NCBI GenBank assembly: GCA_040954595.2
Contig: CM082580.2
Coordinates: 2,408,783-2,472,782, forward strand
Source: Balanoglossus misakiensis
Lineage: Eukaryota; Animalia; Hemichordata
Direction of reading: 5' to 3'
Length of the DNA stretch: 64,000 nucleotides
Each line of letters opens with the position of its first letter. The stretch's first letter is position 1. Position numbers and translations under genes: made by a program. Shown here one piece after another: positions 4,898 through 54,613 of the stretch. Below the pieces are notes generated by a model that had not been told where the DNA came from, did not search any database, and saw nothing but the letters and a program-made list of their open reading frames with translations.

Positions 4898-4951
4898 TCA
4901 TGATTTCTTCCCCATTTTCTCCGGCTACTAGCAATGAATCAAAATACTCAC

Positions 4952-10406: not shown

Positions 10407-10761
10407 TTCTAGAGGAGCACCTATTAATCCGAGAACAAAGGGATTAAAAGTTATGCCTTTAAATTGTGTTTTGATAACTTACCTACCCCTATAAGTAGTT
10501 TAGTAACCATAATATCTTTGTAAATCAGTCTTTCCACAGTTCCTTGTATCAAATATAGTAATCTAAATTTATTTTGGTGTTTACAGTTGTTATTTGGTGG
10601 GTGAAATTATCTGTATTGGTGGCCATTTTGAAAAATTGGTTGCCATGGAAACTCATCAACAGATATTTAGTGGCTCGCTATCTGAATTTGTTTAGTACAC
10701 ATTAACACACATCTGAGCCAAGTTTGGTGATTTTATCACAAAATGCACAATCGCTATGAAA

Positions 10762-13700
10762 ATTAAAGCTGCAAGCAGCATTGTCCGGGCCCAAGCTTTA
10801 TTATCTGATCTGATTATTAGATATGCACATAATTAATAAGTAGAAACATAATGCTGTGTTTTAGCAAATGAAATATCAAGGTTATATCTATGTTTGGTGC
10901 TGATATAGTGTTAAGTAGGTCAAAGGTCATCCAGAGGTCACCCACAATTTGGGCAGAAAATTTTGACCCATAGTGGTCCATGTCCATCAAAAACCAGACC
11001 TCTAGCCCTTTTGGTTAGCCCGGAATTAGGTATGCACATAAATAATGCGTAAAGCAGGTGTCACAGGTGAGCCAAAACTTTGGCTTTTAATTATGGCCCC
11101 ATACCTCCAAATGCCCAGACTGTACCTGCTTTGGATGTCGAGATATGCAAAAATAGGTCAAAGGTCATCTGAGGTCACCCAAAATTTGGGCAGAAAATTT
11201 TGACCCAAAGTAGTCCATGTCCAACAAAAACCAGACCTCTAGCCCTTTTGGTTAGCCCGGAATAAGGTATGCACATAAATAATGAGTTAAGCAGGTGTCA
11301 CAGGTGACCCAAAACTTTGGCTTTTCATTATGGCCCCATATCTCCAAACGCCAAGGCTGTATCTGCTGTGGATGTCGAGATATACAAAAATTAGGTCAAA
11401 GGTCACCCGAGGTCACCCAACATTTGGGCAAAATATTTTGACCCCATACTAATCCATGTCCAAAAAAACCAAACCTCTAGGTCTATTGGTTCATCTGTAA
11501 TTAGGTATGCGCACATTTAATGAGGTCAGCAGAGGTCAAAGGGGTCATGAAAAGTAGCACAATTTTTTGATCACATACAAACCCACATACATGAAAAACC
11601 AAACTTATAGCCCTATTGGTTAGCCTGGAATTAGATATGCAGAAAAACGATGCGTCAAAAGTAGGTCAAAGGTCATTGCCAAAATTACCAAAATATTTAT
11701 AGGTTATTCTTGTCATATGATGATTCATATCCATAAAAAGAATTTCTGTGCTATCAATTTTTAGGCTAGAAAGGGAATTTTTACTTTTTAATCGTTTTTC
11801 ACAAAATCCAATATGGCCGCCATAATCTACGACCAATCACATTCTTCTTCGCAAACTTGATAGACATCTATTTAATGACCACACACACCAAATCTTGTGA
11901 CTCGGTTATCGCCGGTTCTTGAGAAGAAGATTTTTGAAGTTTTACTATGGTTTTTCGAAAATCCAATATGGCCGCCATAATCTTCGACCAATCACAATGA
12001 TCTTCGCAAACTTGATAGACATCAGTTAGGTGACCACATACCCCAAACGGCGTGACTCGGTTATTGCCGGTTCTGGAGAAGAAGATTTTTGAAATTTTGA
12101 CCAGATTTCAGAAAAACAACTGTAGCAAAAAAACTGCAACATTGACAGCAAAATATCCAATTACAAAAATGATGGGCATTAGGTATACTAGCTGCACACC
12201 AAATTTGAGGTCAATCTGACTTGTAGTTTCTGAGATCTGAGATTTGCATTTTTTCAGAAAATCCAATATGGCCGCCAGGTCACGTGACTAATTAAAAATT
12301 CATGGGTTCAATGCACGACTACTCATTGACCTTGACCACTGTAGCAAGTTTGAAAACTGTACCTGCAGTGGTGTCTGAGATCTAGAGCGACAAAGAATTG
12401 ACATAAGAATAAAGAAAGAAAGAAAGACTGAATTAAAGCTGCAAGCAGCATTGTCGGGCCCAAGCGCTGATCTTGAATTATATATGCACAGTATGAATGA
12501 GAAGAAACAGAATTTTCTATCGGATGTATTATCTCATGACATAACAAGGATGTGTGTATTTTTGCTGCTGAAATAGGGTAAAGTAGGTCAAAGGTCACCT
12601 GAGGTCACCCAACATTTGGGAAATTTTTTTTGATCCATACTGGTCCTTGTCCAACAAAAACCAAAACTCTACCTCTATTGGTTCGCCTGTAATTAGGTAT
12701 GTGCATATTTAATGAGGTCAGCAGGTGTCACAGGTGACCCAAAAATGTGGCTTTACATTATGGTCCCATCCTACCAAATGCCATGGCTGTATCTGCTCTG
12801 GATGCTGAGATATGCGAAAGTAGGTCAAAGGTCACCAGAGGTCACCCAACATTTGGGCAAAAAATTTTGTTCCCATAGTGGTACATGTCCAACAAAAACC
12901 AAACCTCTAGCTCTATTGGTTCGCCTGTAATTAGCTATGCGCATAATTAATGAGGTCAGCAGAGGTCAAAGGGGTCATGAAAAGTAGCAAAATATTTTGA
13001 TCACACACTAATCCACATGCATCAAAAACCAAACGTCTAGCCCTATAGGTTAGCCTGGAAATAGATATGCAGAAATAATAACGTGTGAAAAGTAGGTCAA
13101 AGGTCATGTGAAAAATCGCCAAAAAATTGTAACATATTTTAGTCACATGACGATTGATATCCATAAAAAGAGTTTGTATGCTATCAATTTTTAGACTAGG
13201 AAAAGGAATTTCAATTTTTCACTGCTTTTTACAAAATCCAATATGGCCGCCATAATCTTCGACCAATCACAATGCTCTTTGCAAACTTGATAGACATCAG
13301 TGTAGTGACCAAACTCCCCGAATCTTGCGACTCAGTTATCGCCCGTTCTGGAGAAGAAGATTTTTTGAGTTTTACTATGGTTTTTCGAAAATCCAATATG
13401 GCCGCCATAATCTTCGACCAATCACAATGATCTTCGCAAACTTGATAGACATCAGTTAGATGACCACATACACCAAACCCCGTGTCTGGGTTATCACCGG
13501 TTCTGGAGAAGAAGATTTTTGAAATTTTGACCAGATTTCAGAAAAAAAATTGTAGCAAAAAAACTGCAACATTGACAGCATAATTTCCAATTACAAAAAT
13601 GATGGGCAGAAGGTAGTCTACCTGCACGCCAAATTTGAAGTCGATCTGACTTGTAGTTTCTGAGATCTGAGATTTGCATTTTTTCAGAAAATCCAAGATG

Positions 13701-16700
13701 GCCGCCAGGTCATGTGACTAATTAAAAATTCAAGGGATCAATGCACGACTACTCATTGACCTTGACCACTGTAGCAAGTTTCAGAAGTGTACCTGCAGTG
13801 GTCTCTGAGATCTAGAGCGACAAAGAATTGACACAAGAATAAAGAAAGAAAGAAAGAAGAAAGAAAGACAGATTAAAGCTGCAAGCAGCATTGTCCGGGC
13901 CCAAGCTTTATTATCTGATCTGATATTAGATATGCACATAATTAATGAGAAGAAACATAATGCTGTGTTTATCCCATGAAATATCAAGGTTATATCTATG
14001 TTTGGTGCTGATATAGTGTTAAGTAGGTCAAAGGTCACCCAGAGGTCACCCACAATTTGGGCAGAAAATTTTGACCCATAGTGGTCCATGTTCAACAAAA
14101 ACCAGACCTCTAGGCCTTTTGGTTAGTACAGAATTAGGTATGCACATAAATGATGAGTTGAGCAGGGGTCACAGGTGACGCAAAACTTTGGCTTTTCATT
14201 ATGGCCCCATACCTCCAAATGCCAAGGCTGTATCTGCTGTGGATGTCGACATATGCAAAAGTAACTCAAAGGTCACCCAAGGTCACCCAACATTTGGGCA
14301 AAAATTTTTGACCCAATACTGGTCCATGTCCAACAAAAACCAAACCTCTAGGTCTATTGGTGCATCTGTAATTAGGTATGCGCATATTTAATGAGGTCAG
14401 CAGAGGTCAAAGGGGTCATGAAAAGTAGCAAAAATTTTTGATCACATACAAAACCACATACATCAAAAACCAAACTTATAGCCCTATTGGTTAGCCTGGA
14501 ATTAGATATGCAGAAAAATGATGCGTCAAAAGTAGGTCAAAGGTCATTGCCAAAATTACGAAAATATTTATAGCTTATTCTTGTCATATGATGATTCATA
14601 TCCATAAAAAGAATTTCTGTGCTATCAATTTTTAGGCTAGAAACGGAATTTTTACTTTTTAATCGTTGTTCACGAAATCCAATATGGCCGCCAAAATCTT
14701 CGACCAATCACAATGATCTTAGCAAACTTGATAGACATCAGTGTAGTGACCATACTCCCCAAATCTTGTGACTTGGTTATCGCTGGTTCTTGAGAAGAAG
14801 ATTTTTGAAATTTTACTAGGGTTTTTCGAAAATCCAATATGGCCGCCATAATCTTCGACCAATCACAATGATCTTCGCAAACTTGATAGACCTCAGTTTG
14901 GTGACCACATACCCCAAACCCAGTGTCTCGGTTATCACCGGTTCTGGAGAAGAAGATTTTTGAAATTTAAGCCAGATTTCAGAAAAAAAATTGTAGCAAA
15001 AAAACTGCAACTTTGTCAGCATAATTTCCAATTACAAAAATGATGGGCAGAAGGTAGTCTACCTGCACGCCAAATTTGAAGTCGATCTGACTTGTAGTTT
15101 CTGAGATCTGAGATTTGCATATTTTCAGAAGATCCAAGATGGCTGCCAGGTCATGTGACTAATTAGAAATTCAAGGGTTCAATGCACGACTACTCATTGA
15201 CCTTGACCACTGTAGCAAGTTTCAGAAGTGTACCTGCAGTGGTGTCTGAGATCTAGAGCGACAAAGAATTGACACAAGAATAAAGAAAGAAAGAAAGAAA
15301 GAAGAAAGAATTAAAGCTGCAAGCAGCATTGTCCGGGCCCAAGCTCTATTATCTGATCTGATTATTAGATATGCACATAATTAATGAGTAGAAACATAAT
15401 GCTGTGTTTTATCCCATGAAATATCAAGGTTATATCTAGGTTTGGTGTTGACATAGTATTAAGTAGGTCAAAGGTCACCCAGAGGTCACCAATTATTTGG
15501 GCAGAATATTTTGACCCATAGTGGTCTATGTCCAACAAAAACAAGATCTCTAGCCCTTTTGGTTAGCCCGGAATTAGGTATGCACATAAATAATGAGTTA
15601 AGCAGGTGTCACGGGTGACCCAAAACTTTGGCTTTTCATTATGGCCCCATACCTCCAAACGCCAAGGCTGTATCTGGTGTGGATGTCGAGATATGCAAAA
15701 GTAGGTCAAAGGTCACCCGAGGTCACCCAACATTTGGGCAAAATATTTTGACCCCATACTGGTCCATGTATAACAAAAACAAAACCTCTAGGTCTATTGG
15801 TTCATCTGTAATTAGGTATATGCATATTTAATGAGGTCAGCAGAGGTCAAAGGGGTCATGAAAAGTAGCAAAATTTTTTGATCACATACAATCCACATAC
15901 ATCAAAAACCAAACTTATAGCCCTATTGGTTAGCCTGGAATTAGATATGCAGAAAAATGATGCGTCAAAAGTAGGTCAAAGGTCATTGCCAAAATTACCA
16001 AAATATTTATAGGTTATTCTTGTCATATGATGATTCATATCCATAAAAAGAATTTCTGTGCTATCAATTTTTAGGCTAGAAAAGGAATTTTTACTTTTTA
16101 ATCGTTTTTCACAAAATCCAATATGGCCGCCATAATCTTCGACCAATCACATTCCCCTTCGCAAACTTGATAGACATCTGTTTAATGACCACACACACCA
16201 AATCTTGTGACTCGGTTATCGCCCGTTCTGGAGAAGAAGATTTTTGAAGTTTTACTATGGTTTTTCGAAAATCCAATATGGCCGCCATAATCTTCGACCA
16301 ATCACAATGATCTTCGCAAACTTGATAGACATCAGTTAGGTGACCACATACCCCAAACGGCGTGACTCGGTTATCGCCGGTTCTGGAGAAGAAGATTTTT
16401 GAAATTTTGACCAGATTTCAGAAAAACAACTGTAGCAAAAAAACTGCAACATTTACAGCAAAATATCCAATTACAAAAATGATGGGCAGAGGGTATACTA
16501 CCAGCACGCCAAATCTGAACTCGATCTGACTTGTAGTTTCTGAGATCTGAGATTTGCATTTTTTCAGAAAATCCAATATGGCCGCCATGTCACATGACTA
16601 ATTAAGTATTCACAAGTCACTGCACATCTACTCATTGACCTTGACCACTGTAGCAAGTTTGAGAACTGTACCTGCAGCGGTGTCTGAGATCTAGAGCGCG

Positions 16701-18215
16701 AAAGAAGTGAACCAAGAATAAAGAAAGAAAGAAAGAAAGAATTAAAGCTGCAAGCAGCATTGTCCGGGCCCAAGCTCTATTATCTGATCTGATTATTAGA
16801 TATGCACATAATTAATGAGTAGAAACGTAATGCAGTGTTTTATCCCATGAAATATCAAGGTTATATCTATGTTTGGTGCTGATATAGTGTTAAGTAGGTC
16901 AAAGGTCACCCAGGGGTCACCCACAATTTGGGCAGAATATTTTGACCCATAGTGGTCAATGTCCAACAAAAACCAGACCTCTAGCCCTTTTGGTTAACCC
17001 GGAATTAGGTATGCACATAAATAATGCGTAAAGCAGGTGTCACAGGTGACCCCACAACTTTGGCTTTTCATTATGGCCCCATACCTCCAAACGCCAAGGT
17101 TGTACCTGCTTTGGATGCTGAGATATGCAAAAGTAGGTCAAAGGTCATCTGAGGTCACCCAAAATTTGGGTAGAAAATTTTGACCCGTAGTGGTCCATGT
17201 ATAACAAAAACAAAACCTCTAGGTCTATTGGTTCATCTGTAATTAGGTATGTGCATATTTAATGAGGTCAGCAGAGGTCAAAGGGGTCATGAAAAGTAGC
17301 AAAATTTGTTGATCACATACAAATCCACATACATCTAAAACCAAACTTATAGCCCTATTGGTTAGACAGGAATTAGATATGCAGAAATAATAATGCATGA
17401 TAAGTAGGTCAAAGGTCATTGCCAAAATTACCAAAATATTTACAGCTTATTCTTGGCATATGATGATTCATATCCATAAAAAGAATTTCTGTGCTATCAA
17501 TTTTTAGGCTAGAAACAGAATTTTTACTTTTTAATCGTTGTTCACAAAATCCAATATGGCCGCCAAAATCTTCGACCAATCACAATGATCTTCGCAAACT
17601 TGATAGACATCTGTTTAATGACCACACACACCAAATCTTGTGACTCGGTTATCGCCGGTTCTTGAGAAGAAGATTTTTGAAATTTTACTAGGGTTTTTCG
17701 AAAATCCAATATGGCCGCCATAATCTTCGACCAATCACAATGATCTTCGCAAACTTGATAGACCTCAGTTTGGTGACCACATACCCCAAACCGCGTGACT
17801 CGGTTATCGCCGGTTCTGGAGAAGAAGATTTTTGAAATTTTGACCAGATTTCAGAAAAACAACTGTAGCAAAAAAACTGCAACATTGACAGCAAAATATC
17901 CAATTACAAAAATGATGGGTAGAAGGTAGACTACCTGCACACCAAATTTGAAGTCGATCTGACTTGTAGTTTCTGAGATCTGAGATTTGCATTTTTTCAG
18001 AAAATCCAAGATGGCCGCCAGGTCATGTGACTAATTAAAAATTCATGGGTTCAATGCACTACTACTCATTGACCTTGACCACTGTAGCAAGTTTGAGAAC
18101 TGTACCTGCAGTGGTGTCTGAGATCTAGAGCGACAAAGAAGTGAACCAAGAATAAAGAAAGAAAAACCCCAACGAAACCAATACGGGCCCAAGCCTGGCT
18201 TGGCTTGGGCCCGTA
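10762..18215 (-). repeat. Five family-A units (~1.43-1.67 kb each)
   Basis: They begin attaaagctgcaagcagcattgtc(c)gggcccaagc and end in (GAAA)n. They contain ~238 bp repeats and a ~155 bp repeat (aaaatccaatatggccgccataatcttcgaccaatcac). Only the fifth keeps an adjacent head (18182-18215). Confidence 0.9.
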
Positions 18216-19287
18216 AATATAGCTGCAAGCAGCAATGGCGGGCCCAAGCCAACATAGCACATAGCAACATAGCAATAAGCATATCTGCTCTGGATGCCAA
18301 GATATGGAAAAGTAGGTCAAAGGTCACCTGAGGTCATGCAAAATTTGGGCGAGAAATTTTGACCCTATACATGTTCATCAAAAACCAAACCTATAGCCCT
18401 ATTGGTTAGCCTGGAATTAGGTATGCACATAATTAATGAGGTAGGCAGGTGTCACAGGTGACCCCCCAATTTGGCTTTTCAATTTTAGTCCCAACCATCC
18501 AAACGCCAATTCTGTATCTGCTCTGGATGCCAAGATATGGTAAAGTTGGTCAAAGGTCACCTGAGGTCTTGCAAAATTTGGGGAATAAATTTTGACCCTA
18601 TACTGGTCCACGTTCAACAAAAACCAAACCTATAGCCCTATTGGTTAGCCTGGAATTAGGTATGCACATAATTAATGAGATATGCAGGTGTCACAGGTGA
18701 CCCCTATTTTGGCTTTTCAACTTTAGTCCCAACCCTCCAAACGCCAAGTCTGTACCTGCTCTGGATGCCGAGATATAGGAAAGTAGGTCAAAGGTCACCT
18801 GAGGTCACCCCAAATTTGGACAAGAAATTTTGACCCTATACTGGTCTATGTCCCACAAGAACGAAACCTCTAGCCCTCTTAGTTAGCCCAGAATTAGGTA
18901 TGCACATAATTAATGAGTTAAGCAGGTGTTACAGGTGAGCCTAAAATTCTGCCTTTTATTTTGGTGCCATTGTGCTCACTGACCAATAGACACTCACTGT
19001 ACAGGACTTTTGCACTGACCAGAATTCCACAATAAGACATGGACATAGAGGTATAAGTAAAGGTATAAATTTATTTAAAAAATTAATATAAAAAAATCCG
19101 TCGATTTTTCATATTATTTTTTTTCGCTTAAAATTATTGACAAATGCTAGTCTAGCTGCACACCAAAGTTGGAGATGATTGGCCTGACAGATTTTGAGAT
19201 ATGTATGCATATTTATCCAAAATAATATGTGGTCATAGCTTTACTATGGAAAGTATAGGCCCATGGCTTGGTCAAAAAATATGAAAA

Positions 19288-22143
19288 ATTAAAGCTGCAA
19301 GCAGCATTGTCCGGGCCCAAGCTCTATTATCTGATCTGATTATAAGATATGCACATAATTAATGAGTAGAAACATAATGCTGTGTTTTATCCCATGAAAT
19401 ATCAGGGTTATATCTGTTTGGTGCTGATATAGTGTTAAGTAGGTCAAAGGTCACCCAGGGGTCACCCATAATTTTGGCAGAACATTTTGACCCATAGTGG
19501 TCCATGTCCAACAAAAGCCAGACCTCTAGCCCTTTTGGTTAGCCCGGAATTAGGTATGCACATAAATAATGAGTAAAGCAGGTGTCACAGGTGACCCAAA
19601 ACTTTGGCTTTTAATTATGGCCCTATGCCTCCAAACGCCAAGGCTGTATCTGCTGTGGATGTCGAGATATGCAAAAGTAGGTCAAAGGTCACCCGAGGTC
19701 ACCCAACATTCGGGCAAAATATTTTGACCCCATACTTGTCCATGTCCAACAAAAACCAAACCTCTAGCTCTATTGGTTCGCCCGTAATTAGCTATGCACA
19801 TAATTAATGAGGTCAGCTGAGGTCAAAGGGGACATGGAAAGTAGCAAAATATTTTGATCACACACTAATCCACATGCATCAAAAACCAAATGTCTAGCCC
19901 TATTGGTTAGCCTGTAATTAGATATGCAGAAAAATGATGCATCAAAAGTAGGTCAAAGGTCATTGCCAAAATTACCAAAATATTTATAGCTTATTCTTGT
20001 CATATGATGAGTCATATCCATAAAAAGAATTTCTGTGCTATCAATATTTAGGCTAGAAAGGGAATTTTTACTTTTTAATCGTTTTTCACAAAATCCAATA
20101 TGGCCGCCATAATCTTCGACCAATCACATTCCTCTTCGCAAACTTGATAGACATCTGTTTATTGACCACACACACCAAATCTTGTGACTCAGTTATCGCC
20201 GGTTCTTGAGAAGAAGATTTTTGAAATTTTACTAGGGTTTTTCGAAAATCCAATATGGCCGCCTTAATCTTCGACCAATCACAATGATCTTCGCAAACTT
20301 GATAGACCTCAGTTTGGTGACCACATACCCCAAACCGCGTGACTCGGTTATCGCCGGTTCTGGAGAAGAAGATTTTTGAAATTTTGACCAGATTTCAGAA
20401 AAACAACTGTAGCAAAAAATCTGCAACATTGACAGCAAAATATCCAATTACAAAAATGATGGGCAGAAGGTACACTACCAGCACACCAAATCTGAAGTAA
20501 ATCTGACTTGTAGTTTCTGAGATCTGAGATTTGCATTTTTTCAGAAAATCCAATATGGCCGCCATGTCACGTGACTAATTAAAAATTCAAGAGTTCAATG
20601 CACGACTACCCATTGACCTTGACCACTGTAGCAAGTTTGAGAAGTGTACCTGCAGCGGTGTCTGAGATCTAGAGCGACAAAGAAATGACACAAGAATAAA
20701 GAAAGAAAGAAAGAATTAAAGCTGCAAGCAGCATTGTCCGGGCCCAAGCTCTATTATCTGATCAGATTATTAGATATGCACATCATTAATGAGTAGAACC
20801 ATAATGCTGTGTTTTATCCCATGAAATATCAAGGTTATATCTATGTTTGGTGTTGATATAGTGTTAAGTAGGTCAAAGGTCACCCAGAGGTCACCCACAA
20901 TTTGGGCAGAAAATTTTGACCCATAGTGGTCCATGTCCAACAAAAACCATACCTCCAAACGTCAAGGCTGTATCTGTTGTGGATGTCGATATATGCAAAA
21001 GTAGGTCAAAGGTCACCCGAGGTCACCCAACATTTGGGCAAAATATTTTGTCCCCATACTGGTCCATGTATAACAAAAACAAAACCTCTAGGTCTATTAG
21101 TTCATCATCAATTAGGTATGCGCATATTTAATGAGGTCACCAGAGGTCATGAAAAGTAGCAAAAATTTTTTATCACATACAAATCCACATACATCAAAAA
21201 CCAAACTTATAGCCCTATTGGTTAGCCTGGAATTAGATATGCAGAAAAATGATGCGTCAAAAGTAGGTCAAAGGTCATTGCCAAAATTACCAAAATATTT
21301 ATAGCTTATTCTTGTCATATGATGATTCATATCCATAAAAAGAATTTCTGTGCTATCAATTTTAAGGCTAGAAAAGGAATTTTTACTTTTTAATCGTTTT
21401 TCACAAAATCCAATATGGCCGCCATAATCTTCGACCAATCACATTCCCCTTCGCAAACTTGATAGACATCTGTTTAATGACCACACACACCAAATCTTGT
21501 GACTCGGTTATCGCCCGTTCTTGAGAAGAAGATTTTTGAAATTTTACAATGGTTTTTAGAAAATCCAATATGGCCGCCATAATCTTCGACCAATCACAAT
21601 GATCTTCGCAAACTTGATAGACATCAGTTAGGTGACCACATACCCCAAACCGCGTGACTCAGTTATCACCGGTTCTGGAGAAGAAGATTTTTGAAAATTA
21701 AGCCAGATTTCAGAAAAAAAATTGTAGCAAAAAAACTGCAACATTTACAGCAAAATATCCAATTACAAAAATGATGGGTAGAAGGTAGACTACCTGCACA
21801 CCAAATTTGAAGTCGATCTGACTTGTAGTTTCTGAGATCTGAGATTTGCATTTTTTCAGAAAATCCAATATGGCCGCCAGGTCACGTGACTAATTAAAAA
21901 TTCAAGGGTTCAATGCACGACTACTCATTGACCTTGACCACTGTAGCAAGTTTCAGAAGTGTACCTGCAGCGGTGTCTGAGATCTAGAGCGACAAAGAAT
22001 TGACAGAAGAATAAAGAAAGAAAGAAAGAAAGAAAGAAAAACCCCAACGAAACCAATAGGGCCCAAGCGCTGGTATGCGCTTGGGCCCTAAAAACCCCAA
22101 CGAAACCAATAGGGCCCAAGCGCTGGTATGCGCTTGGGCCCTA
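19288..22143 (-). mobile_element. Two family-A units inserted inside a family-B unit
   Basis: The host B sequence tatgaaaaa|taatacttaaaaatc is broken at ~19288 and resumes at ~22144. Two A bodies are followed by exactly two A-type heads (22057-22090, 22110-22143). Confidence 0.92.
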
Positions 22144-43100: not shown

Positions 43101-46100
43101 TAATATAAAAAAATCGGTCGATTTTTCATATTATTTTTTTTCGCTTAAAATTATTGACAAATACTAGGCTAGCTGCACACCAAAGTTGGAGATGATTGGC
43201 CAAACAGATTTTGAGATATGTATGCATATTTATCCAAAATAATATGTGGTCTTAGCTTTACTATGGAAAGTATAGGCCCATGGCTTGGTCAAAAAATATG
43301 AAAAATAATACTTAAAAATCTTCTTCTCAAAATTGGCATGGCCAATGTCCTTGACATTTGGCATGTAGGACACTGACCACATGGTCCGCAAAAGTTGCTA
43401 AAAGAATTTTGATAACTCCATTCATATGCAAATAAGGTCGATTTGAAAATTTTGCCCATATATGGTCATCAGGTCACGTGACTAATTAAACATTCACAAG
43501 GGTACTGCACTAGCTCTCATTGGCCTGCACCATTGTGCCAAGTTTGAAATTGGTAGGTTTAGCAGTTTTCCAGATCTACCTCTCCAAAGAAACGACAGAA
43601 GAAGAAGAAGAAGTAGAAGAAAAACCCCAGTAATACCAATAGGGCCCAAGCCTGCTGGGCTTGGGCCCTAAAAACTCCAGTAAAAACAATAGGGCCCAAG
43701 CCTGCTGGGCTTGGGCCCTAAATATAGCTGCAAGCAGCAATAGCGGGCCCAAGCCAACATAGTACATAGCACATAGCAACATAGCAATAAGCATATCTGC
43801 TCTGGATGCCAAGATATGAGTTAAGCAGGTGTTACAGGTGAGCCTAAAATTTTGCCTTTTATTTTGGTGCCATTGTGCTCACTGACCAATAGATAGTCAC
43901 TGTACAAGACTATTGCACAGGCCAGAATTCCACAATAAGACATGGACATAGCTTAACCATAGAGGTATAGGTAAAGGTATAAATTTAATAAAAAAATTAA
44001 TATAAAAAAATCGGTCGATTTTTCATATTATTTTTTTCCGCTTAAAATTATTGACAAATGCTAGGCTAGCTGCACACCAAAGTTGGAGATGATCGGCCTA
44101 ACAGATTTTGAGATATGTATGCATATTTATCCAAAATAATATGTTGTCATAGCTTAACTATGTAAAGTATAGGCACATGGCTTGGGCGAAAAATATGAAA
44201 AATAATACTTAAAAATCTTCTTCTCAAAATTGACATGGCCTATGGCCTTGACATTTGGCATGTAGAACCCTGGCTATGTGGTCTACAAAGCATCTGAACA
44301 GAATTTTGATATCTCCATTCATATGCAAATTAGGCCGATTTGAAAATTTTGCCCATATATGGTCATCAGGTCACATGACTTATTAAACATTCACAAGGGT
44401 ACTGCACCAGCTCTCGTTGGCCTGCACCATTGTGCTAAGTTTGAAATTGGTAGGTTCAGCCGTTCTCCAGATCTACTTGACAAAAAAAACGGCACAAGAA
44501 GAAAAAGAAGAAAAACTCCAGTAAAAACAATAGGGCCCAAGCCTGCTGGGCTTGGGCCCTAAATATAGCTGCAAGCATCAATAGCGGGCCCAAGCCAACA
44601 TAGCACATAGCAACATAGCAATAAGCATATCTGCTCTGGATGCCAAGATATGGTAAAGTAGGTCAAAGGTCACCTGAGTTCATGCAAAATTTGGGCAAGA
44701 AATTTTGACCCTATACTGGTCCATGTTCAACAAAAACCAAACCTATAGCCCTATTGGTTAGCCTGGAATTAGGTATGCACATAATTAATGAGATATGCAG
44801 GTGTCACAGGTGACCCCCCATTTTGGCTTTTCAATTTTAGTCCCGACCCTCCAAACGCCAAGTCTGTACCAGCTCTGGATGCCGAGATATGGTAAAGTAG
44901 GTCAAAGGTCACTTGAGGTCATGCAACATTTGGGCAAAAAATTTTGACCCTATACTGGTCCATGTTCAACAAAAACCAAACCTATAGCCCTATTTGTTAG
45001 CCTGGAATTAGGTATGCGCATAATTAATGAGATATGCAGGTGTCACAGGTAACCCCCAATTTTGGCTTTTCAATTTTAGTCCCAACCCTCCAAACGCCAA
45101 TTCTGTACCTGCTCTGGATGCCAAGATATGGTAAAGTAGGTCAAAGGTCACTTGAGGTCATGCAACATTTGGGCAAGAAATTTTGACCCTATACTGGTCC
45201 ATGTTCAACAAAAAACAAACCTATAGCCCTATTTGTTAGCCTGGAATTAGGTATGCGCATAATTAATGAGATATGCAGGTGTCACAGGTGACCCCCATTT
45301 TGGCTTTTCAATTTTAGTCCCAACCCTGCATGCACCAAGTTTGTACCTGCTCTGGATGCCAAGATATGGTAAAGTAGGTGAAAGGTCACCTGAGGTCACC
45401 CAAAATTTGGGCAAGAAATTTTGACCCCATACTGGTCCCTGTCCCACAAGAACAAAACCTCTAGGCCTATTAGTTAGCCCGGAATTAGGTATGCACATAA
45501 TTCATTAGTTAAGCAGGTGTTACAGGTGAGCCCAAAATTTTGCCTGTTATTTTGGTCCCATTGTGCTCACTGCCCAATAGACAGTCACTGTACAGGACCG
45601 TTGCACAGACCAGAATTCCACACTAAGACGTGTACATAGCTTAACTATATAGGTATAAGTAAAAAGGTATACATTTAATTTTAAAAAATTAATATAAAAA
45701 AATCGGTCGATTTTTCATATTATTTTTTTCACTTAAAATGATTGACAAATGCTAGGCTAGCTGCACACCAAAGTTTGAGATGATTTTGAGATATGTATGC
45801 ATATTTATCCAAAATAATATGTGGTCATAGCTTTACTAAGTAACGTATAGGCCCATAGCTTGGGCGAAAAATATGAAAAATAATACTTAAAAATCTTCTT
45901 CTCAAAATTGACATGGCCCATGGCCTTGAAATTTGGCATGTAGGACAATGACCCCATGGTCAGCAAAAGTTGCTAAAAGAATTTTGATATCTCCATGCAT
46001 ATGCAAATAAGGCCGATTTGAAAATTTTGCCCAAATATGGTCATCAGGTCACATGACTTATTAAACATTCACAAGGGTACAGCTCATGCTCTTATTGGCC

Positions 46101-49100
46101 TGCACCATTATGCCAAGTTTGAAATTTGTAGGTTCAGCCGTTTTCAAGATGTACTTGACGAAAAAAACGGCACAAGAAGAAGAAGAAGAAATATAGCTGC
46201 AAGCAGCGATGACGGGCCCAAGCTTAAGCCGAAGGTCAAAGGTCATAAGAGGTCACCCGAAATTTGGGCAAGAAATTTTGACCCCCATACTGGTCCGTGT
46301 CCCACAAGAACAAAATCTCTAGCCCTATTGGTTCGCCTACAATTAGGTATGCGCATAATTAATGAGATAAAGTGTAAGGCTCCATCAGGAGTTCCATCCC
46401 TCCAAATGCCAAGGCTGTATCTGCTGTGGATGCCGAGATATGGTAAAGTAGGTCAAAGGTCACCTGAGGTCACCCAAAATTTGGGCAAAAAATTTTGACG
46501 CCATACTGGTCCATGGTCAGCATAAATCAAACCTCTAGCCCTATTGCTTAGCCTGGAATTAGGTATGCACATAATTAATGAGATAAGCAGGTGTCACAGG
46601 TGACCCCAATTTTGGCTTTTCAATTTTAGTCCCAACCCTCCAAACGCCAAGTCTGTACCTGCTCTGGATGCGGAGATATAGGAAAGTAGGTCAAAGGTCA
46701 CCTGAGGTCACCCAAAATTTGGGCAAGAAATTTTGACCCTATACTGGTCCATGTCCCACAAGAACGAAACCTCTAGCCCTCTTAGTTAACCCAGAATTAG
46801 GTATGCACATAATTAATGAGTTAAGCAGGTGTCACAGGTGACCCCCAGTGTTGCCTTTTCAATTTAAGTCCCAACCCTCCAAACGCCAAGTCTGTACCTG
46901 CTCTGGATGCCAAGATATGGTAAAGTAGGTCAAAGGTCACCTGAGGTCATACAAAATTTGGGCAAGAAATTTTGACCGTATACTGGTCCATGTTCAACAA
47001 AAACCAAACCTATAGCCCTATTGGTTAGCCTGGAATTAGGTATGCACATAATTAATGAGTCAAGCAGGTGTTACAGGTGAGCCCAAAATTTTGCCTTCTA
47101 TTTTGGTCCCATTCTGCTCACTGGCCAATAGACAGTCATTTTACAGGACCATTACACAATAAGACGTGGACATAGCTTAACTATGGAGGTATAAGTAAAG
47201 GTATAAATTTAATAAAAAAATTAATATAAAAAAACCGGTTGATTTTTCATATTATTTTTTTTCGCTTAAAATGATTGACAAATGCTAGGCTAGCTGCACA
47301 GCAACTTTGGAATTGATCAGCCGAACAGATTTTGAGATATGACTGCATATTCATCCAAAATAATATGTGGTCATAGCTTAACTATGTATAGTATAGGCCA
47401 ATGGCTTGGGCGAAAAATATGAAAAATAATACTTAAAAATCTTCTTCTCAAAATTGACATGGCCTATGGCCTTGAAATTTGGCATGTACAACCCTGGCCA
47501 TATGGTCCGTAAAAGTTGCTAAAAGAATTTTGATATCTTCATGCATATGCAAATAAGGCCGATTTGAAAATTTTGCCCATATATGGTCATCAGGTCACAT
47601 GACTAATTACACATTCACAAGGGTACTGCACGAGCTCTCATAGGCCTGCACCATTGTGCCAAATGTGAGATTTGTAGGTTCAGCCGTTTTCACGATCTAG
47701 CTGGACAAAAAAACGACACAAGAAGAAGAAGAAGAAGTAGAAGAATATAGCTGCAAGCAGCAATAGCGGGCCCAAGCCAACATAGCACATAGCACATAGC
47801 AACATAGCAATAAGCATATCTGCTCTGGATGCCAAGATATGGTAAAGTAGGTCAAAGGTCAACTGAGGTCATGCAAAATTTGGGCAAGAAATTTTGACCC
47901 TATACTGGTCCATGTTCAACAAAAACCAAACCTATAGCTCTATTGGTTAGCCTGGAATTAGGTATGCACATAATTAATGAGATATGCAGGTGTCACAGGT
48001 GAGCGCCAATTTGGCTTTTCAATTTTAATCCCAACCCTCCAAACGCCAAGTCTGTACCTGCTCTGGATGCCAAGATATGGTAAAGTAGGTCAAAGGTCAC
48101 CTGAGGTCTTGCGAAATTTGGGCAAGAAATTTTGACCCTATACTGGTCCATGTTCAACAAAAACCAAACCTATAGCTCTACTGGTTAGCCTGGAATTAGG
48201 TATGCACATGATTAATGAGATATGCAGGTGTCACAGGTGATCCCCATTTTGGCTTTTCAATTTTAGTCCCAACCCTCCAAACGCCAAGTCTGTACCTGCT
48301 CTGGATGCCGAGATATAGGAAAATAGGTCAAAGGTCACCTGAGGTCACCCAAAATTTGGTAAACATTTTTGACCCCATACTAGTCCTTGTCACACAAGAA
48401 CAATACCTCTAGTCCTATTAGTTAGCCCGGAATGAGGTATGCGCATAATTAATGAGTTAAGCAGGTGTTACAGGTGAGCCCAAAATTTTGCCTTTTATTT
48501 TGGTCCCATTCTGCGCACGGGCCAATAGACAGTCAGTGTACAGGACCATTGCACAGACCAGAATTCTACAATAAGACGTGGACATAGCTTAACCATAGAG
48601 GTATAAGTAAAGGTATAAATTTCATAAAAAAAATTAATATAAAAAAATCGGTCGATTTTTCATATTATTTTTTTTCGCTTAAAATTATTGGCAAATGCTA
48701 AGCTACCTGCACACCAAAGTTGGAGTTGATCGGCCCAACAGATTGTGAGATATGACTGCATATTCATCCAAAATAAAATGTGGTCAAAGCTTAACTATGT
48801 ATAGTATAGGCCGATGGCTTGGCCGAAAAATATGAAAAATAATACTTAAAAATCTTCTTCTCAAAATTGACAAGGCCTATGGCCTTGACATTTGGCATGT
48901 AGAACCCTGACCACATGGTGCACAAAAGTTGCTAAAAGAATTTTGATATCTCCATGCATATGCAAATAAGGCCGATTTGAAAATTTTGCCCATATATGGT
49001 CATCAGGTCACATGACTTATTGAACATTCACGAGGGTACTGCACCAGCTCTCATTGGCCTGCACCATTGTGCCAAATTTGAGATTTGTGGGTTCAGCAGT

Positions 49101-51058
49101 TTTTCAGATCTACCTGGCCGAAAAAAGTGCCCAAGAAGAAGTAGAAGAAAATATAGCTGCAAGCAGCAATAGCGGGCCCAAGCCAACATAACACATAGCA
49201 ACATAGCAATAAGCATATCTGCTCTGGATGCCAAGATATGGTAAATTAGGTCAAAGGTCACCTGAGTTCATGCAAAATTTGGGCAAGAAATTTTTACCCT
49301 TAACTGGTCCATGTTCAACAAAAACCAAACCTATAGCCCTATTGGTTAGCCTGGAATTAGGTATGCACATAATTAATGAGGTAGGCAGGTGTCACAGGTG
49401 ACCCCCAATTTTGCCTTTTCAATTTTAGTCCCAACCCTCCAAACGCCAAGTTGGTACCTGCTCTGGATGCCAAGATATGGTAAAGTAGGTCAAAGGTCAC
49501 CTGTGGTCATACAAAATTTGGGCAAGAAATTTTGACCCTATACTGGTCCATGTTCAACAAAAAACAAACCTATAGCCCTATTGGTTAGCCTGGAATTAGG
49601 TATGCACATAATTAATGAGGTAGGCAGGTGTCACAGGTGACCCCCAATTTTGCCTTTTCAATTTTAGTCCCAACCCTCCAAACGCCAAGTTGGTACCTGC
49701 TCTGGATGCCAAGATATGGTAAAGTAGGTCAAAGATCACCTGTGGTCATACAAAATTTGGGCAAGAAATTTTGACCCTATACTGGTCCATGTTCAACAAA
49801 AAACAAACCTATAGCCCTATTGGTTAGCCTGGAATTAGGTATGCACATAATTAATGAGGTAGGCAGGTGTCACAGGTGACCCCCAATTTTGCCTTTTCAA
49901 TTTTAGTCCCAACCCTCCAAACGCCAAGTTGGTACCTGCTCTGGATGCCAAGATATGGTAAAGTAGGTCAAAGGTCACCTGAGGTCATACAAAATTTGGG
50001 CAAGAAATTTTGACCCTATACTGGTCCATGTTCAACAAAAACCAAACCTATAGCCCTATTGGTTAGTCTGGAATTAGGTATGCACATAATTAATGAGATA
50101 TGCGGGTGTCACAGGTGACCTTCATTTTGGCTTTTCAATTTTAGTCCCAACCCTCCAAACGCCAAGTCTGTACCTGCTCTGGATGCCGAGATATAGGAAA
50201 GTAGGTCAAAGGTCACCTGAGGTCACCCAAAATTTGGGCAAAAAATTTTGACCCTATACTGGTCCATGTCCCACAAGAACGAAACCTCAAGCCCTCTTAG
50301 TTAGCCCAGAATTAGGTATGCACATAATTAATGAGTTAAGCAGGTGTTACAGGTGAGCCTAAAATTGTGCCTTTTATTTTGGTGCCATTGTGTTCACTGA
50401 CCAATAGACAGTCACTGTACAGGACTATTGCACAGACCATAATTCCACAATAAGACATGGACATAGCTTAACCATAGAGGTATAAGTAAAGGTATAAATT
50501 TAATTAAAAAAATAATATAAAAAAATCGGTCGATTTTTCATATTATTTTTTTTCGCTTAAAATTATTGACATATGCTAGGCTAGCTGCACACCAAAGTTG
50601 GAGATGATTGGCCTAACAGATTTTGAGATATGTATGCATATTTATCCAAAATAATATGTGGTCATAGCTTTACTATGGAAAGTATAGGCCCATGGCTTGG
50701 TCAAAAAATATGGAAAATAATACTTAAAAATCTTCTTCTCAAAATTGGCATGGCCAATGGCCTTGACATTTGGCATGTAGGACACTGACCACATGGTCCG
50801 CAAAAGTTGCTAAAAGAATTGTGATATCTCCATTCATATGCAAATAAGGCGGATTTGAAAATTTTGCCCATATATGGTCATCAGGTCACGTGACTAATTA
50901 AACATTCACAAGGGTACTGCACTAGCTCTCATTGGCCTGCACCATTGTGCCAAGTTTGAAATTGGTAGGTTTAGCAGTTTTCCAGATCTACCTCGCCAAA
51001 GAAAATGACAGAAGAAGAAAAAGAAGAAGAAGTAGAAGAAAAACCCCAGTAATACCAA

Positions 51059-51189
51059 TAGGGCCCAAGCCTGCTGGGCTTGGGCCCTAAAAAGCCAACA
51101 ATACCAATAGGGCACAAGCCTGCTGGGCTTGTGCCCTAAAAAACCCCAGTAATACCAATAGGGCCCAAGCCTGCTGGGCTTGGGCCCTA
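51059..51189 (-). repeat. Stack of three displaced 5' hairpin heads
   Basis: 31-bp palindromes at 51059, 51108 and 51159, separated by ~19 bp A-rich spacers. Confidence 0.9.
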
Positions 51190-53343
51190 AAAACTCCAGT
51201 AAAAAATATAGCTGCAAGCAGCAATAGCGGGCCCAAGCCAACATAGCACATAGCAACATAGCAATAAGCATATCTGCTCTGGATTTGGAAAAATATGTCA
51301 AAGGTCACCTGAGGTCATGCAAAAATTTGGGCAAGAAATTTTGACCCTATACTAGTCCATGTCCGACAAAAACCAAACCTATAGCCCTATTGGTTAGCCT
51401 GGAATTAGGTATGCACATAATTAATGAGATATGCAGGTGTCACAGGTGACCCCAAATTTTGTCTTTTCAATTTTAGTCCCAACCCTCCAAACGCCAAGTC
51501 TGTACCTGCTCTGGATGCCAAGATATGGTAAAGTAGGTCAAAGATCACCTGAGGTCATACAAAATTTGGGCAAGAAATTTTGACCCTATACTGGTCCATG
51601 TTCAACAAAAACCAAACCTATAGCCCTATTGGTTAGCCTGGAATTAGGTATGCACATAATTAATGAGATATGCAGGTGTCACAGGTGACCCCCATTTCGG
51701 CTTTTCAATTTTAGTCCCAACCCTCCAAACGCCGAGTCTGTACCTGCTCTGGATGCCAAGATATGGTAAAGTAGGTCAAAGGTCACCTGAGGTCATACAA
51801 AATTTGGGCAAGAAATTTTGACCCTATACTGGTCCATGTTCAACAAAAACCAAACCTATAGCCCTATTGGTTAGCCTGGAATTAGGTATGCACATAATTA
51901 ATGAGATATGCAGGTGTCACAGGTGACCCCCATTTCGGCTTTTCAATTTTAGTCCCAACCCTCCAAACGCCAAGTCTGTACCTGCTCTGGATGCCAAGAT
52001 ATAGGAAAGTAGGTCAAAGGTCACCTGAGGTCACCCAAAATTTGGGCAAGAAATTTTGACCCTATACTGGTCCATGTTCAACAAAAACCAAACCTATAGC
52101 CCTATTGGTTAGCCTGGAATTAGGTATGCACATAATTAATGAGGTAGGCAGGTGTCACAGGTGATCCCCAATTTTGGCTTTTCAATTTTAGTCCCAACAC
52201 TCCAAACGTCAAGTCTGTACCTGCTCTGGATGCCAAGATCTGGTAAAGTAGGTCAAAGGTCACCTGAGGTCAAGCAAAATTTGGGCAAGAAATTTTGAAC
52301 CTATACTTGTCCATGTTCAACAAAAACCAAACATATAGCCCTATTGGTTAGCCTGGAATTAGGTATGCACATAATTAATGAGATATACAGGTGTCACAGG
52401 TGACCCCCATTTTGGCTTTTCAATTTTAGTCCCAACCCTCCAAACGCCAAGTCTGTACCTGCTCTGGATGCCGAGATATAGGAAAGTAGGTCAAAGGTCA
52501 CCTGAGGTCACCCAAAATTTGGGCAAGAAATTTTGACCCTATACTGGTCCATGTCCCACAAGAACGAATCCTCTAGCCCTCTTAGTTAGCCCAGAATTAG
52601 GTATGCACATAATTAATGAGTTAAGCAGGTGTTACAGGTGAGCCTAACATTTTGCCTTTTATTTTGGTGCCATTGTGCTCACTGACCAATAGATAGTCAC
52701 TGTACAGGACTATTGCACAGACCAGAATTCCACAATAAGACATGGACATAGCTTAACCATAGAGGTATAAGTAAAGGTATAAATTTAATAAAAAAATTAA
52801 TATAAAAAAATCGGTCGATTTTTCATATTATTTTTTTCCGCTTAAAATTATTGACAAATAATAGGCTAGCTGCACACCAAAGTTGGAGATGATCCGCCTT
52901 ACGGATTTTGAGATATGTATGCATATTTATCCAAAATAATATGTGGCCATAGCTGTACTATGTAAAGTATAGGCCCATGGCTTGGGCGAAAAATATGAAA
53001 AATAATACTTAAAAATCTTCTTCTCAAAATTGACATGGCCTATGGCCTTGACATTTGGCATGTAGAACCCTGGCCATATGGTCCACAAAAGTTGCTCAAA
53101 GAATTTTGATATCTCCATTCATATGCAAATAAGGCCGATTTGAAAATTTTGCCCATATATGGTCATCAAGTCACATGACTAATTAAACATTCACAAGGGT
53201 ACTGCACTAGCTCTCATTGGCCTGCACCATTGTGCCAAGTTTGAAATTGGTAGGTTTAGCAGTTTTCCAGATCTACCTCGCCAAAGAAAACGACAGAAGA
53301 AGAAAAAGAAGAAGAAGTAGAAGAAAAACCCCAGTAATACCAA

Positions 53344-53714
53344 TAGGGCCCAAGCCTGCTGGGCTTGGGCCCTAACAATAGGGCCCAAGCCTGCTGGGCT
53401 TGGGCCCTAAAAACTCCAGTAAAAACAATAGGGCACAAGCCTGCTGGGCTTGTGCCCTAAAAACTCCAGTAAAAACAATAGGGCACAAGCCTGCTGGGCT
53501 TGTGCCCTAAAAAGCCAGTAATACCAATAGGGCCCAAGCCTGCTGGGCTTGGGCCCTAAAAAACCCCAGTAATACCAATAGGGCCCAAGCCTGCTGGGCT
53601 TGGGCCCTAAAAAACCCCAACGAAACCAATAGGGCCCAAGCGCTTGCTTGCGCTTGGGCCCTAAAAATACCAACGAAACCAATAGGGCCCAAGCCTGGCT
53701 TGGCTTGGGCCCTA
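53344..53714 (-). repeat. Terminal stack of eight displaced 5' hairpin heads (CRISPR-like in appearance, not CRISPR)
   Basis: Palindromes start at 53344, 53379, 53429, 53479, 53528, 53579, 53630 and 53683. The first six are B-type (CTGCTGG loop) and the last two are A-type (ccaacgaaaccaa spacer). Confidence 0.92.
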
Positions 53715-54613
53715 ATTAGGGTTTGGCCGCTCCACTAAATGGAGTAACTAAACTTTCCCCTTTTCAACTGTACCCGCCGCCGCGCCGTTCCTCAATGCAA
53801 AACCCCCTAGTCTGCTACAGGTAACAAAACCACTTAACTCGATATTAAAAAATAGTGACCAGTACACAGTACCAAAACCGATTAATAATACGCAGCAATG
53901 TTCTAGATAAACAAAAGGCACAATATAAATCTTTGTTATGGTGTATAAATGTGAAGATTAAAAAAACTGAGGAACGCCAAAATTCTCGTTCCGCGGGAAA
54001 TAACAAGTACTGATTTGTCGCCTGAGAAACACACTCATCCTGCTTTTCAGGCGTTTATACAGATTGTCTGTGACCTGACTGTTAGAATATCATAGTTTGC
54101 CCTGAATGAAATCAAATCAGATATTTCCATGCCAATCCTTACAGCAGGATTACAACGGTACTGCATTACACTGACGTCATAAGAATTCACTGGAACAAAT
54201 GACATCGTAGTTGCCATGAAGGATGGCGGGATTTGTTTGTCGCTATTCAAAATGGCGGCTTTTAGCCGACTCAGTAAATGTTGCTTTAACAGAGAAAGGG
54301 GCTTTAGTGTACTGAGTGAAATACCAAATAAATGTAAGTTTATGATATCAATTATTCTGAATTTAATCGGGTTGAAAGGGAAACAGGGTATATCTTTTGA
54401 TCAATCGGCTTCCACGGATTCTGAAATTTCCCCTAAAGATGGCGCCAAACAAACAACACTTCTGCGCATGGCCGACGCGATCTTCTTTCCAGTTAGTTCT
54501 TCTCCTTCTACGAAAGAGAGAGAAAAAGAGGTTTATATAGTTGACAACAATGACAGTCTTTCAACTAATCATTGTTCTGTACACACGTGCTTATCACAAA
54601 CCTTTTTTGGAAG

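What the first reader, a model, noticed from the sequence alone, without database searches (positions are those of the whole stretch)
10762..53714. 43-kb self-targeting nested stack of rolling-circle-type elements with a readable insertion order
Seen: about 28 co-oriented bodies and 23 hairpin heads. Most bodies run from their microsatellite directly into the next body's 3' end with no head, while surplus heads pile up further right in groups of 2, 2, 2, 3 and 8. Heads behave like closing brackets: the outermost bodies are family A (10762-16740) and the last two heads (53630, 53683) are family A, about 40 kb away. Established: asymmetric subterminal repeats, a 5' hairpin, a 3' stem-loop, a microsatellite and TT insertion without TSD define Helentron/Helitron2 non-autonomous elements (HINE, DINE-1). 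Inference: each copy carries its own preferred target (T-rich microsatellite and spacer), so the locus is a self-regenerating landing pad that grows by recursive insertion and logs its own history. This is a route to satellite-like arrays that differs from unequal crossover or concatemer integration.
Basis: partly seen in the sequence, partly recalled or inferred. Interest (0 to 1): 0.92.

Follow-up and report, generated by a model that had tools for sequence, protein, structure and literature searches.

The report
Transposons stacked behind each other's heads
Twenty-eight small non-coding Helentron-like transposons fill 43 kb, all facing one way and most joined at one short T-run beside an earlier copy's front-end hairpin, a nested stack likely built by repeated self-targeted insertion that would let one test how these elements pick their targets.

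Summary
Observation confirmed: 28 co-oriented bodies and 23 hairpin heads at 10762-53714. The anatomy fits non-autonomous Helentrons (HINE/HLE2); no transposase lies in the window and no genome was available to seek one. Nesting is directly supported: the two outer flanks rejoin into a repeat with an empty copy nearby, one body and one head spacer are split by inserted copies, terminal T counts balance at 8 of 8 paired junctions, and head types fit body clades 9 of 9 (46 of 200,000 shuffles). I favour hairpin-docked target choice, which is inferred, not shown. Self-insertion near the 5' end is already proposed for fungal FoHeli (up to five 5' ends); my nine literature searches found no 15-deep, position-fixed stack. 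This scan noted similar stacks in other genomes (four unchecked notes). The 'route to satellites' is speculative.

The parts
10762..53714 (-). Whole nested stack: 28 bodies and 23 heads; element sense is the minus strand (5' hairpin head at the right, 3' palindrome at the left). Both ends are ambiguous by one base within A/T runs.
10484..10761 (.). Left part of the host repeat interrupted by the stack
   Evidence: aligns to 8717-8444 at 82% over 276 nt and to 9054-8776 at 85%
53714..53741 (.). Right part of the same host repeat
   Evidence: aligns to 8447-8420 at 93% over 28 nt, abutting the left-flank match
8420..8717 (.). Uninterrupted paralog of the host repeat, in opposite orientation: the empty site
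10762..16740 (-). Four family-A bodies (3' palindromes at 10768, 12438, 13878, 15316), each ending in an AAAG microsatellite that runs into the next body; two 155-bp internal repeats each
16741..18213 (-). Complete family-A element with its own head (18185-18212)
18215..19287 (-). Family-B body 18222, first piece, cut at an internal T5 run
   Evidence: 17 intact copies of this site matched elsewhere in the window
19288..22142 (-). Closed sub-nest inside body 18222: A body 19294, complete A element 20721 (head 22059-22088), head of 19294 (22112-22141)
22143..22461 (-). Second piece of body 18222, resuming at the cut
22462..33386 (-). Family-B bodies 22468, 26302, 29152, 31997 (no adjacent head) alternating with complete elements 24837 (head 26265), 27713 (head 29117), 30553 (head 31962); 238-bp internal repeats
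33387..36655 (-). Closed sub-nest: family-C body 33393 holding complete B element 34932 (head 36578), then its own head 36629
36657..41081 (-). B bodies 36664 and 38195, then complete element 39843 (head 41055)
41083..44559 (-). Closed sub-nest 41090 holding 42267 (heads 43642, 43692), then short complete element 43727 (head 44533)
44561..51204 (-). Four-deep closed sub-nest: bodies 44568, 46196 (family C), 47750, 49156; heads 51061, 51110, 51161; then the first half of the head spacer of 44568 (51189-51204)
51205..53407 (-). Complete B element 51211 (head 53346) inserted in the spacer T-run of 44568's head; spacer remainder and hairpin at 53374-53407
53408..53713 (-). Six further stacked heads (53431, 53481, 53530, 53581 B-type; 53632, 53685 A-type); 11 are expected from the open bodies
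1020..3547 (-). Separate two-element nest: family-C element 2148 (head 3466) inside an older relative (70-73% identical to B bodies) whose head follows at 3516; left limit approximate

Best explanation
The locus is a stack of 28 non-coding Helentron-like (HINE/HLE2-type) elements nested in one orientation, likely built by successive insertions in which a rolling-circle transposase supplied from elsewhere would dock on a resident copy's 5' hairpin and join a new copy into the neighbouring T-run. Shown: the anatomy, the empty outer site, two split hosts, the fixed position (a T5-6 run about 17 nt from the hairpin, 45-50 nt inside the 5' end), a constant number of terminal Ts added per insertion (2 for family A, 3 for B/C), and matching of head types to body clades. 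Inferred: each insertion pushes the resident's head away from its body and brings a fresh hairpin plus T-run, so the target regenerates and the stack deepens (15 levels by stack parse); side-by-side siblings arise by re-use of the same T-run; five heads were later deleted from the 50-bp tandem pile at the right end by slippage or unequal exchange. From published work on relatives, not shown here: a Rep-helicase transposase and a circular intermediate. My odds: nested insertion 0.9, contraction as the main cause of the missing heads 0.65, hairpin docking rather than plain sequence preference 0.5.
For: Empty site: left and right flanks align end to end on one paralog. Body 18222 is cut by A-A-head-head and resumes at the base where 17 intact copies run on; the head spacer of 44568 is cut by 51211. 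Left plus right A-run minus the intact run is 2 in 3 of 3 family-A pairs (1 of 6 permutations) and 3 in 5 of 5 family-B pairs (2 of 120 permutations), and 3 again in the separate nest at 2148. Head type agrees with body family or supported clade in 9 of the 9 scorable of 12 non-innermost heads; 46 of 200,000 shuffles reach this. 17 of 19 nested insertions use the boundary run although bodies hold on average 18 same-strand and 17 opposite-strand runs of 4 or more T; all 28 face one way. 12 of 12 head-to-head linkers lack microsatellite remnants. The 5' hairpin is far more stable than shuffles (z -4.4 to -6.6 in 3 of 3 heads folded). For contraction: the hairpin behind 44568's spacer has the C stem although its sister 27713 (0.43% apart) and the head assigned to sister 36664 have the A stem, as a one-unit deletion would leave; the A budget of host 18222 fits nesting (3, expected 3) and not side-by-side composites (11, expected 9). 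Precedent: FoHeli self-insertion 31-85 nt inside the 5' end.
Against: Strict bracket matching fails in the last cluster; the 9 of 9 score allows skipping there (the shuffles get the same freedom), counts one hybrid spacer as the common type, and 3 of 12 heads had no prediction. The A-budget pairings in the last cluster were chosen after the fact, and for host 36664 nesting and composite models fit equally. Head 53481 has the A stem while the nearest relative of its assigned body has the C stem, so stem type is not a safe marker. Hairpin and microsatellite both border the target run, so the window cannot separate them. One insertion (19294) lies in a T-run about 370 nt from any head and the outermost lies in an unrelated repeat, so a hairpin of this family is not required. 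No autonomous partner was found. The one hairpin-bearing Helitron tested experimentally, Helraiser (HLE1), shows no local hopping. No read or contig spanning the stack was seen.
Confidence: 0.6

Rival explanations
1. Nesting is real but target choice is plain sequence preference: the transposase or its endonuclease domain prefers a T-run abutting a pyrimidine microsatellite, which every copy happens to carry; the hairpin plays no part.
For: HINEs prefer T-rich targets. A Lepidopteran Helitron-like family is reported to disrupt (GAAA)n microsatellites, the family-A repeat here (title only, reference list). Two insertions (10768, 19294) have no family hairpin nearby. Paramecium Helitrons insert with fixed orientation into telomeric repeats.
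Against: No insertion falls inside the microsatellite (12 of 12 linkers clean) although body tails hold on average 13.5 TT steps in the last 45 nt; 51211 used a second T-run even closer to the hairpin; bodies hold about 8 other same-strand runs of 5 or more T each, used once in 19 events.
Confidence: 0.3
2. Part of the stack arrived as composites: replication began at an inner head, bypassed that element's 3' end and carried the next body along (two bodies, one head). The five 'missing' heads never were here and the true depth is less than 15.
For: End bypass is shown for Helraiser and proposed for maize nested Helitrons. Body-body-head blocks recur (22468+24837, 26302+27713, 38195+39843). The A budget of host 36664 fits (12, expected 12). 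The 3' palindrome here folds no better than shuffles, so it may be a weak stop.
Against: A budget of host 18222 is off by 2; the stem type at 53381 fits a one-unit deletion; all five missing heads would sit in the one place where tandem contraction is easiest.
Confidence: 0.25
3. The array came from rolling-circle concatemer integration, homologous integration of circles, or unequal crossing-over of bodies and heads separately.
For: 7 of 8 head-to-body junctions have exactly the 3 Ts that a joined-end circle would have; tandem Helitron arrays are known.
Against: No block duplication: longest exact repeat 561 bp, closest sisters are never neighbours; three families interleave; sisters 27713, 36664 and 44568 are non-chimeric along their length although each borders a head-to-body junction; split hosts and balanced T counts are not expected; the plant arrays have many 5' ends and one 3' end (as summarised), whereas here 3' ends are in excess.
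Confidence: 0.04
4. Misassembly of a high-copy repeat family.
For: The family is very abundant (summed contig depth in array bins is hundreds to thousands of times that of unique bins; not a copy number) and no listed contig spans a whole unit.
Against: Every unit is distinct, flanks rejoin exactly on a paralog 43 kb apart, and distant junctions complement each other to the base; an assembler error would not produce these.
Confidence: 0.03

Closest known systems
HINE / DINE-1 non-autonomous Helentrons (Thomas, Vadnagara and Pritham 2014, PMC4067079; oyster Cg_HINE, PMC7492417; passages seen)
   Same: 5' subterminal repeat with a nearby inverted copy, microsatellite, central tandem repeats, 3' subterminal repeat and palindrome, insertion in T-runs without duplication, variable terminal Ts, no coding capacity.
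   Different: The passages seen describe dispersed copies with a general T-rich preference, not position-fixed recursive insertion behind the resident head; subterminal repeat here is 10-11 nt against 11-15.
FoHeli (HLE2) self-insertion in Fusarium oxysporum (PMC5148889, passages and section 10; PMC13342296, passages)
   Same: Piles of 5' termini explained by insertion of one copy 31-85 nt inside the 5' end of another; up to five 5' termini on one copy.
   Different: There one 3' end carries several 5' ends and nested bodies are mostly inferred; here the bodies are still in place, 28 of them, from three families, with junction-level bracket evidence.
Nested and multi-terminus Helitrons of maize (PMC3288121, passages) and double-LTS HelenXT233 of Xenopus (PMC11417382, passages)
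   Same: Insertion in or near other Helitrons; multiple termini derived from nests; two 5' ends in direct repeat on one HLE2.
   Different: Two to three levels, no fixed site reported in the passages seen; maize elements are HLE1.
Zepp nested LINE clusters of Coccomyxa (PMC3446292, passages)
   Same: Clusters of nested copies up to 42.3 kb, the same size as this stack.
   Different: Retrotransposon, one cluster per chromosome; different chemistry and termini.
Rolling-circle concatemer arrays of plant Helitrons (Xiong et al. 2016; seen only as summarised in PMC12628747 and PMC8268682)
   Same: Long co-oriented arrays of Helitron-derived units with unequal numbers of 5' and 3' ends.
   Different: Those have many 5' ends and one 3' end from one replication event; here 3' ends are in excess, units are unlike their neighbours and heads are displaced by nesting.

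Membership tests
HINE / non-autonomous Helentron (HLE2) | Asymmetric subterminal inverted repeats | tested here: met
   The same 10-11 nt motif lies 1-2 nt from the 5' end and, inverted, about 22 nt from the 3' end; slightly shorter than the 11-15 nt.
HINE / non-autonomous Helentron (HLE2) | Inverted copy next to the 5' repeat forming a hairpin | tested here: met
   13-14 bp stems, z -4.4 to -6.6 in 3 of 3 folded; both arms change together in 7 of the 24 heads listed.
HINE / non-autonomous Helentron (HLE2) | Short 3' palindrome / stem-loop | tested here: inconclusive
   A 12-nt palindrome is exact in 28 of 29 copies but folds no better than shuffles in 2 of 2 ends tested (z 0.26, 1.31).
HINE / non-autonomous Helentron (HLE2) | Microsatellite near the 5' end and central tandem repeats | tested here: met
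   (CTTT)n or (CTT)n after the spacer; 238-bp and 155-bp internal repeats.
HINE / non-autonomous Helentron (HLE2) | Insertion in a T-run without target-site duplication | tested here: met
   Three filled/empty comparisons (outer paralog, internal B site, head spacer) and constant T excess in 8 of 8 pairs. The 4-nt overlap at the outer site is the family-A end itself, present in all hosts. A strict T^T cut at every site needs the terminal Ts to be split variably, as describes.
HINE / non-autonomous Helentron (HLE2) | No coding capacity | tested here: met
   3 stop-to-stop frames of 120 aa or more in the array, none with a Pfam hit; 2 of 11 frames in the window hit RVT_1, both outside the array.
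HINE / non-autonomous Helentron (HLE2) | Autonomous Rep-helicase(-endonuclease) partner with the same termini | not testable with these tools
   No whole genome is held; none in the window.
HINE / non-autonomous Helentron (HLE2) | Circular intermediate with joined ends | not testable with these tools
   Head-to-body junctions with 3 Ts (7 of 8) look like joined ends but are genomic.
Rolling-circle concatemer array | Near-identical adjacent units, many 5' ends per 3' end | tested here: not met
   Best sisters are never neighbours; 28 3' ends to 23 5' ends.
Satellite DNA | Homogenised tandem monomers with block duplications | tested here: not met
   Units 0.8-2.4 kb, three families, longest exact repeat 561 bp; only the head pile is a 50-bp tandem (6.7 copies, 90% matches).

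The most novel reading that the evidence does not exclude
HLE2 transposases choose targets by docking on the 5' hairpin of a resident copy and inserting at the nearest T-run: target choice programmed by the element's own terminal DNA structure, shared across related families. Every copy is then a self-renewing landing pad, animal genomes carry many deep last-in-first-out stacks, and these grow by tens of kilobases within less than allelic divergence time, giving haplotype-specific structural variants and tandem mini-arrays of heads made by insertion alone.
Probability: 0.35. Interest if true: 0.75.

Novelty: new variant of a known kind. Interest (0 to 1): 0.52.

Why it matters
How Helentron/HLE2 elements pick targets is open (PMC4067079 calls for biochemical work). 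This locus gives base-level predictions: one T-run about 17 nt from the resident hairpin, fixed orientation, 2 or 3 Ts added per event. These can be tested by counting in a genome or with hairpin-mutant targets. The stack also dates itself: 17 elements lie inside body 26302, which differs from its sister 38195 by only 9 of 1404 bases, while contigs of the public sample differ from unique flanks by up to 4-5%. If gene conversion is not the cause, some 26 kb were added in less than allelic divergence time, so such stacks should be polymorphic. In practice, nests of this kind break repeat annotation (heads and bodies up to 43 kb apart) and explain the surplus 5' ends seen on other HLE2 elements.

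Tried and rejected
Whole-genome search for solitary copies and an autonomous partner: no genome held. Two exact-pattern scans of metagenome contigs with the 3' ends of families B and A: 0 loci each. Look-alike search among earlier scan windows: 0; none on this genome. Rfam scan of the window: 0 matches. Public runs: three runs of one sample, contigs only, possibly the window's own source, so no independent support. On 4500-23000 they list a family-A head-to-head joint at summed depth 2253 and 6100 against roughly 35-115 and 160-320 for unique contigs, but with only 22-23 letters on the short side, so I take it as a hint that head piles are common, not as evidence; no listed contig bridges the left junction; read support for the right-hand head cluster and for an empty allele remains open. 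A first A-run permutation used a misread value (4 instead of 5 after head 51061) and ignored the 6-A host; it is replaced. Body 33393 was left out of the A-run test because its tail is a 16-A tract, and last-cluster pairs were left out of the permutation. The binomial for site preference (about 1e-20 to 1e-25) assumes independent events and equal runs and overstates the case. Target-site duplication at the outer site was rejected because the overlap is the element's own end. Homologous (Campbell-type) integration was rejected for junctions next to non-chimeric sisters. The family-A tree is too weakly resolved to assign the last two heads. Two open exon-like frames in the left flank gave no Pfam hit. 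The organism was not identified.


Full report
Setting. The window is eukaryotic, probably an animal (inference from exon-like frames at 4975-5113 and 6160-6347 and LINE reverse-transcriptase remnants at 54771-56054 and 59337-59975). No whole genome is held, so nearly all evidence comes from the window.

Observation. A 12-nt palindrome marks 29 body starts, all on one strand, against 0.26 expected; 28 lie in 10762-53714. There are 23 hairpin heads in that span, in groups of 2, 2, 2, 3 and 8 plus six singles. Read on the minus strand each complete unit is: T, a 13-14 bp hairpin (z -4.4 to -6.6 in 3 of 3 folded), a 17-nt spacer, a T5-6 run, a (CTT)n or (CTTT)n microsatellite, a body with 238-bp or 155-bp internal repeats, an inverted copy of the first hairpin arm, the palindrome and a T-rich end. 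Eleven complete units measure 840-2169 bp. Seven bodies are family A, 19 family B and 2 family C by their 3' ends. The array encodes nothing recognisable. This matches the HINE/DINE-1 layout in PMC4067079 and PMC7492417 (passages); the 3' palindrome is conserved but folds no better than shuffles, and the autonomous partner could not be sought.

Evidence that it is a nest. (a) The left flank aligns to 8717-8444 and the right flank to 8447-8420, so both are halves of one repeat with an empty copy nearby. The 4-nt overlap is the family-A terminus, found in every host, so there is no duplication. (b) Family-B body 18222 stops at 19287, is followed by two A bodies and two A heads, and resumes at 22143 exactly where 17 intact copies run on. 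(c) The head spacer of 44568 is split by element 51211. (d) Left plus right A-run minus the intact run is 2 in 3 of 3 family-A pairs and 3 in 5 of 5 family-B pairs (1 of 6 and 2 of 120 permutations); body 33393 (poly-A tail) and last-cluster pairs were left out. A separate two-element nest at about 1020-3547 gives 3 as well. (e) Supported clades in the tree of head-proximal body sequence predict spacer types: 47750 groups with 34932 and gets the same rare head; 44568 and 36664 group with 27713; 31997 with 43727. Of 12 non-innermost heads 9 could be scored and 9 fit; 46 of 200,000 shuffles do as well. The score lets heads be skipped in the last cluster and counts one hybrid spacer as the common type.

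Where the brackets fail. A strict stack reaches depth 15, leaves five bodies open and pairs the last two family-A heads with B bodies. After the split head at 53381, 11 heads are expected and 6 are present, in the right order. Two readings remain: contraction of the 50-bp tandem pile (6.7 copies), or composites made by 3'-end bypass (shown for Helraiser; proposed for maize). For contraction: the hairpin at 53381 has the C stem whereas sister 27713 and the head assigned to sister 36664 have the A stem, as a one-unit deletion would leave, and the A budget of host 18222 fits nesting (3 of 3 expected) but not composites (11 against 9); host 36664 fits both. These pairings are after the fact and stem type misfits once (53481), so I put contraction at about 0.65.

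Not duplication or concatemer. The longest exact repeat is 561 bp and long matches are 95-97% alike except between three dispersed sisters and one further dispersed pair; best sisters are never neighbours and the youngest are non-chimeric end to end. Seven of 8 head-to-body junctions have exactly three Ts, which a joined-end circle would also have, but one such junction joins a pure A to a pure B element, so re-use of the same T-run is the simpler reading; order among such siblings cannot be read.

Target. Of 19 insertions inside a resident, 17 follow the microsatellite directly, one is in the spacer T-run 5 nt from the hairpin and one in an internal T-run. All 12 head-to-head linkers lack microsatellite remnants, so the cut is at the T5-6 run on the boundary, not in the microsatellite. 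Bodies hold on average 18 same-strand and 17 opposite-strand runs of 4 or more T (8 and 4 of 5 or more), almost unused. T-richness alone therefore does not explain the choice. The run is flanked by the hairpin on one side and the microsatellite on the other. I favour docking of the transposase on the resident hairpin, since terminal hairpins are broadly implicated in DNA binding by HUH enzymes (PMC10288648 passage), but this is inference (0.5); a preference for a T-run at a pyrimidine-tract edge is the main rival, and two insertions have no family hairpin nearby.

Timing. Bodies 27713, 36664 and 44568 differ by 6-7 bases in 1.3-1.5 kb, and 26302 and 38195 by 9 in 1404. In the nest reading 17 elements lie inside 26302, so about 26 kb were added after a split of 0.64% (gene conversion could shrink this figure). 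Contigs of the one public sample match the unique flank either almost exactly or with 14-16 differences in 260-360 nt, which suggests 4-5% between haplotypes; the stack should then be polymorphic. The three runs are one sample and may be the window's source. Read support for the right end and for an empty allele remains open.

Comparison. Self-insertion close to the 5' end is already proposed for FoHeli, an HLE2 group, with 31-85 nt repeated and up to five 5' ends (PMC5148889 passages and section 10; PMC13342296 passages). Maize Helitrons nest and gain several termini (PMC3288121 passages); a Xenopus HLE2 has two 5' ends in direct repeat (PMC11417382 passages); Zepp LINEs form nested clusters to 42.3 kb (PMC3446292 passages); oyster loci with shuffled, inserted Helitron parts are described in a review (PMC12628747 passages). 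Also seen as passages: PMC13085455, PMC4778049, PMC8268682, PMC5876387. Xiong 2016 was seen only as summarised, Coates 2010 only as a title. Nine searches gave no paper describing a deep, position-fixed HLE2 stack with intact bodies; the library lacks most subscription papers and I read no supplements (the FoHeli termini tables may hold deeper cases). Four unchecked notes of this scan report like stacks in other genomes; they suggest generality but are not evidence here.

Verdict. The feature is real and well supported. The elements are ordinary HINE-type copies and the principle of self-insertion is known; what is new is the depth, the fixed site shared by three families, and junction-level proof of order. 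New variant of a known kind; interest 0.52, higher if hairpin-docked targeting is shown.

Noticed in passing
window 1020-3547: A second, two-element nest of the same kind: family-C element 2148 inside an older relative (70-73% identical to B bodies, with its own 150-bp tandem repeat at 1443-1743) whose divergent head follows at 3516; T count balances.
   Followed up: partly
heads at 3466, 26265, 29117, 36578, 51110, 53431, 53481: Both arms of the 5' hairpin change together (C-G to A-T pair) in 7 of 24 heads listed, never one arm alone; fits selection on the stem or hairpin-templated correction.
   Followed up: partly
window 33393, 46196, 39843, 2148: Bodies are mosaics: family-C 3' ends occur with different head-proximal parts, and B-ended 39843 shares its head-proximal part with C-ended 2148, pointing to module exchange between families.
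   Followed up: partly
window 8420-9054 and 10484-10761: The host repeat has a 331-bp internal period and an inverted copy 1.4 kb from the interrupted one; the stack sits about 25 nt inside its apparent end. It may itself be a HINE-like element.
   Followed up: partly
window 10759-10764 and 19283-19290: The two family-A insertions outside a head region share a similar target context on the minus strand (W-W-A-T-T then T-T-(T)-C-A-T-A), resembling the element's own 3' end.
   Followed up: no
window 4975-5113 and 6160-6347 (minus strand): Two open exon-like frames of an unidentified gene about 4.4 kb from the stack; no Pfam hit.
   Followed up: partly
window 1-760, 54771-56860 (-), 58840-60150 (+): LINE-like remnants; two frames hit RVT_1; the one at 1-760 was judged by eye only.
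   Followed up: partly
window 22037-22144: The two family-A heads at 22059 and 22112 are identical over 53 bp, so one could be a local duplication rather than the head of 19294; the count of two bodies and two heads inside the split host fits either way.
   Followed up: no
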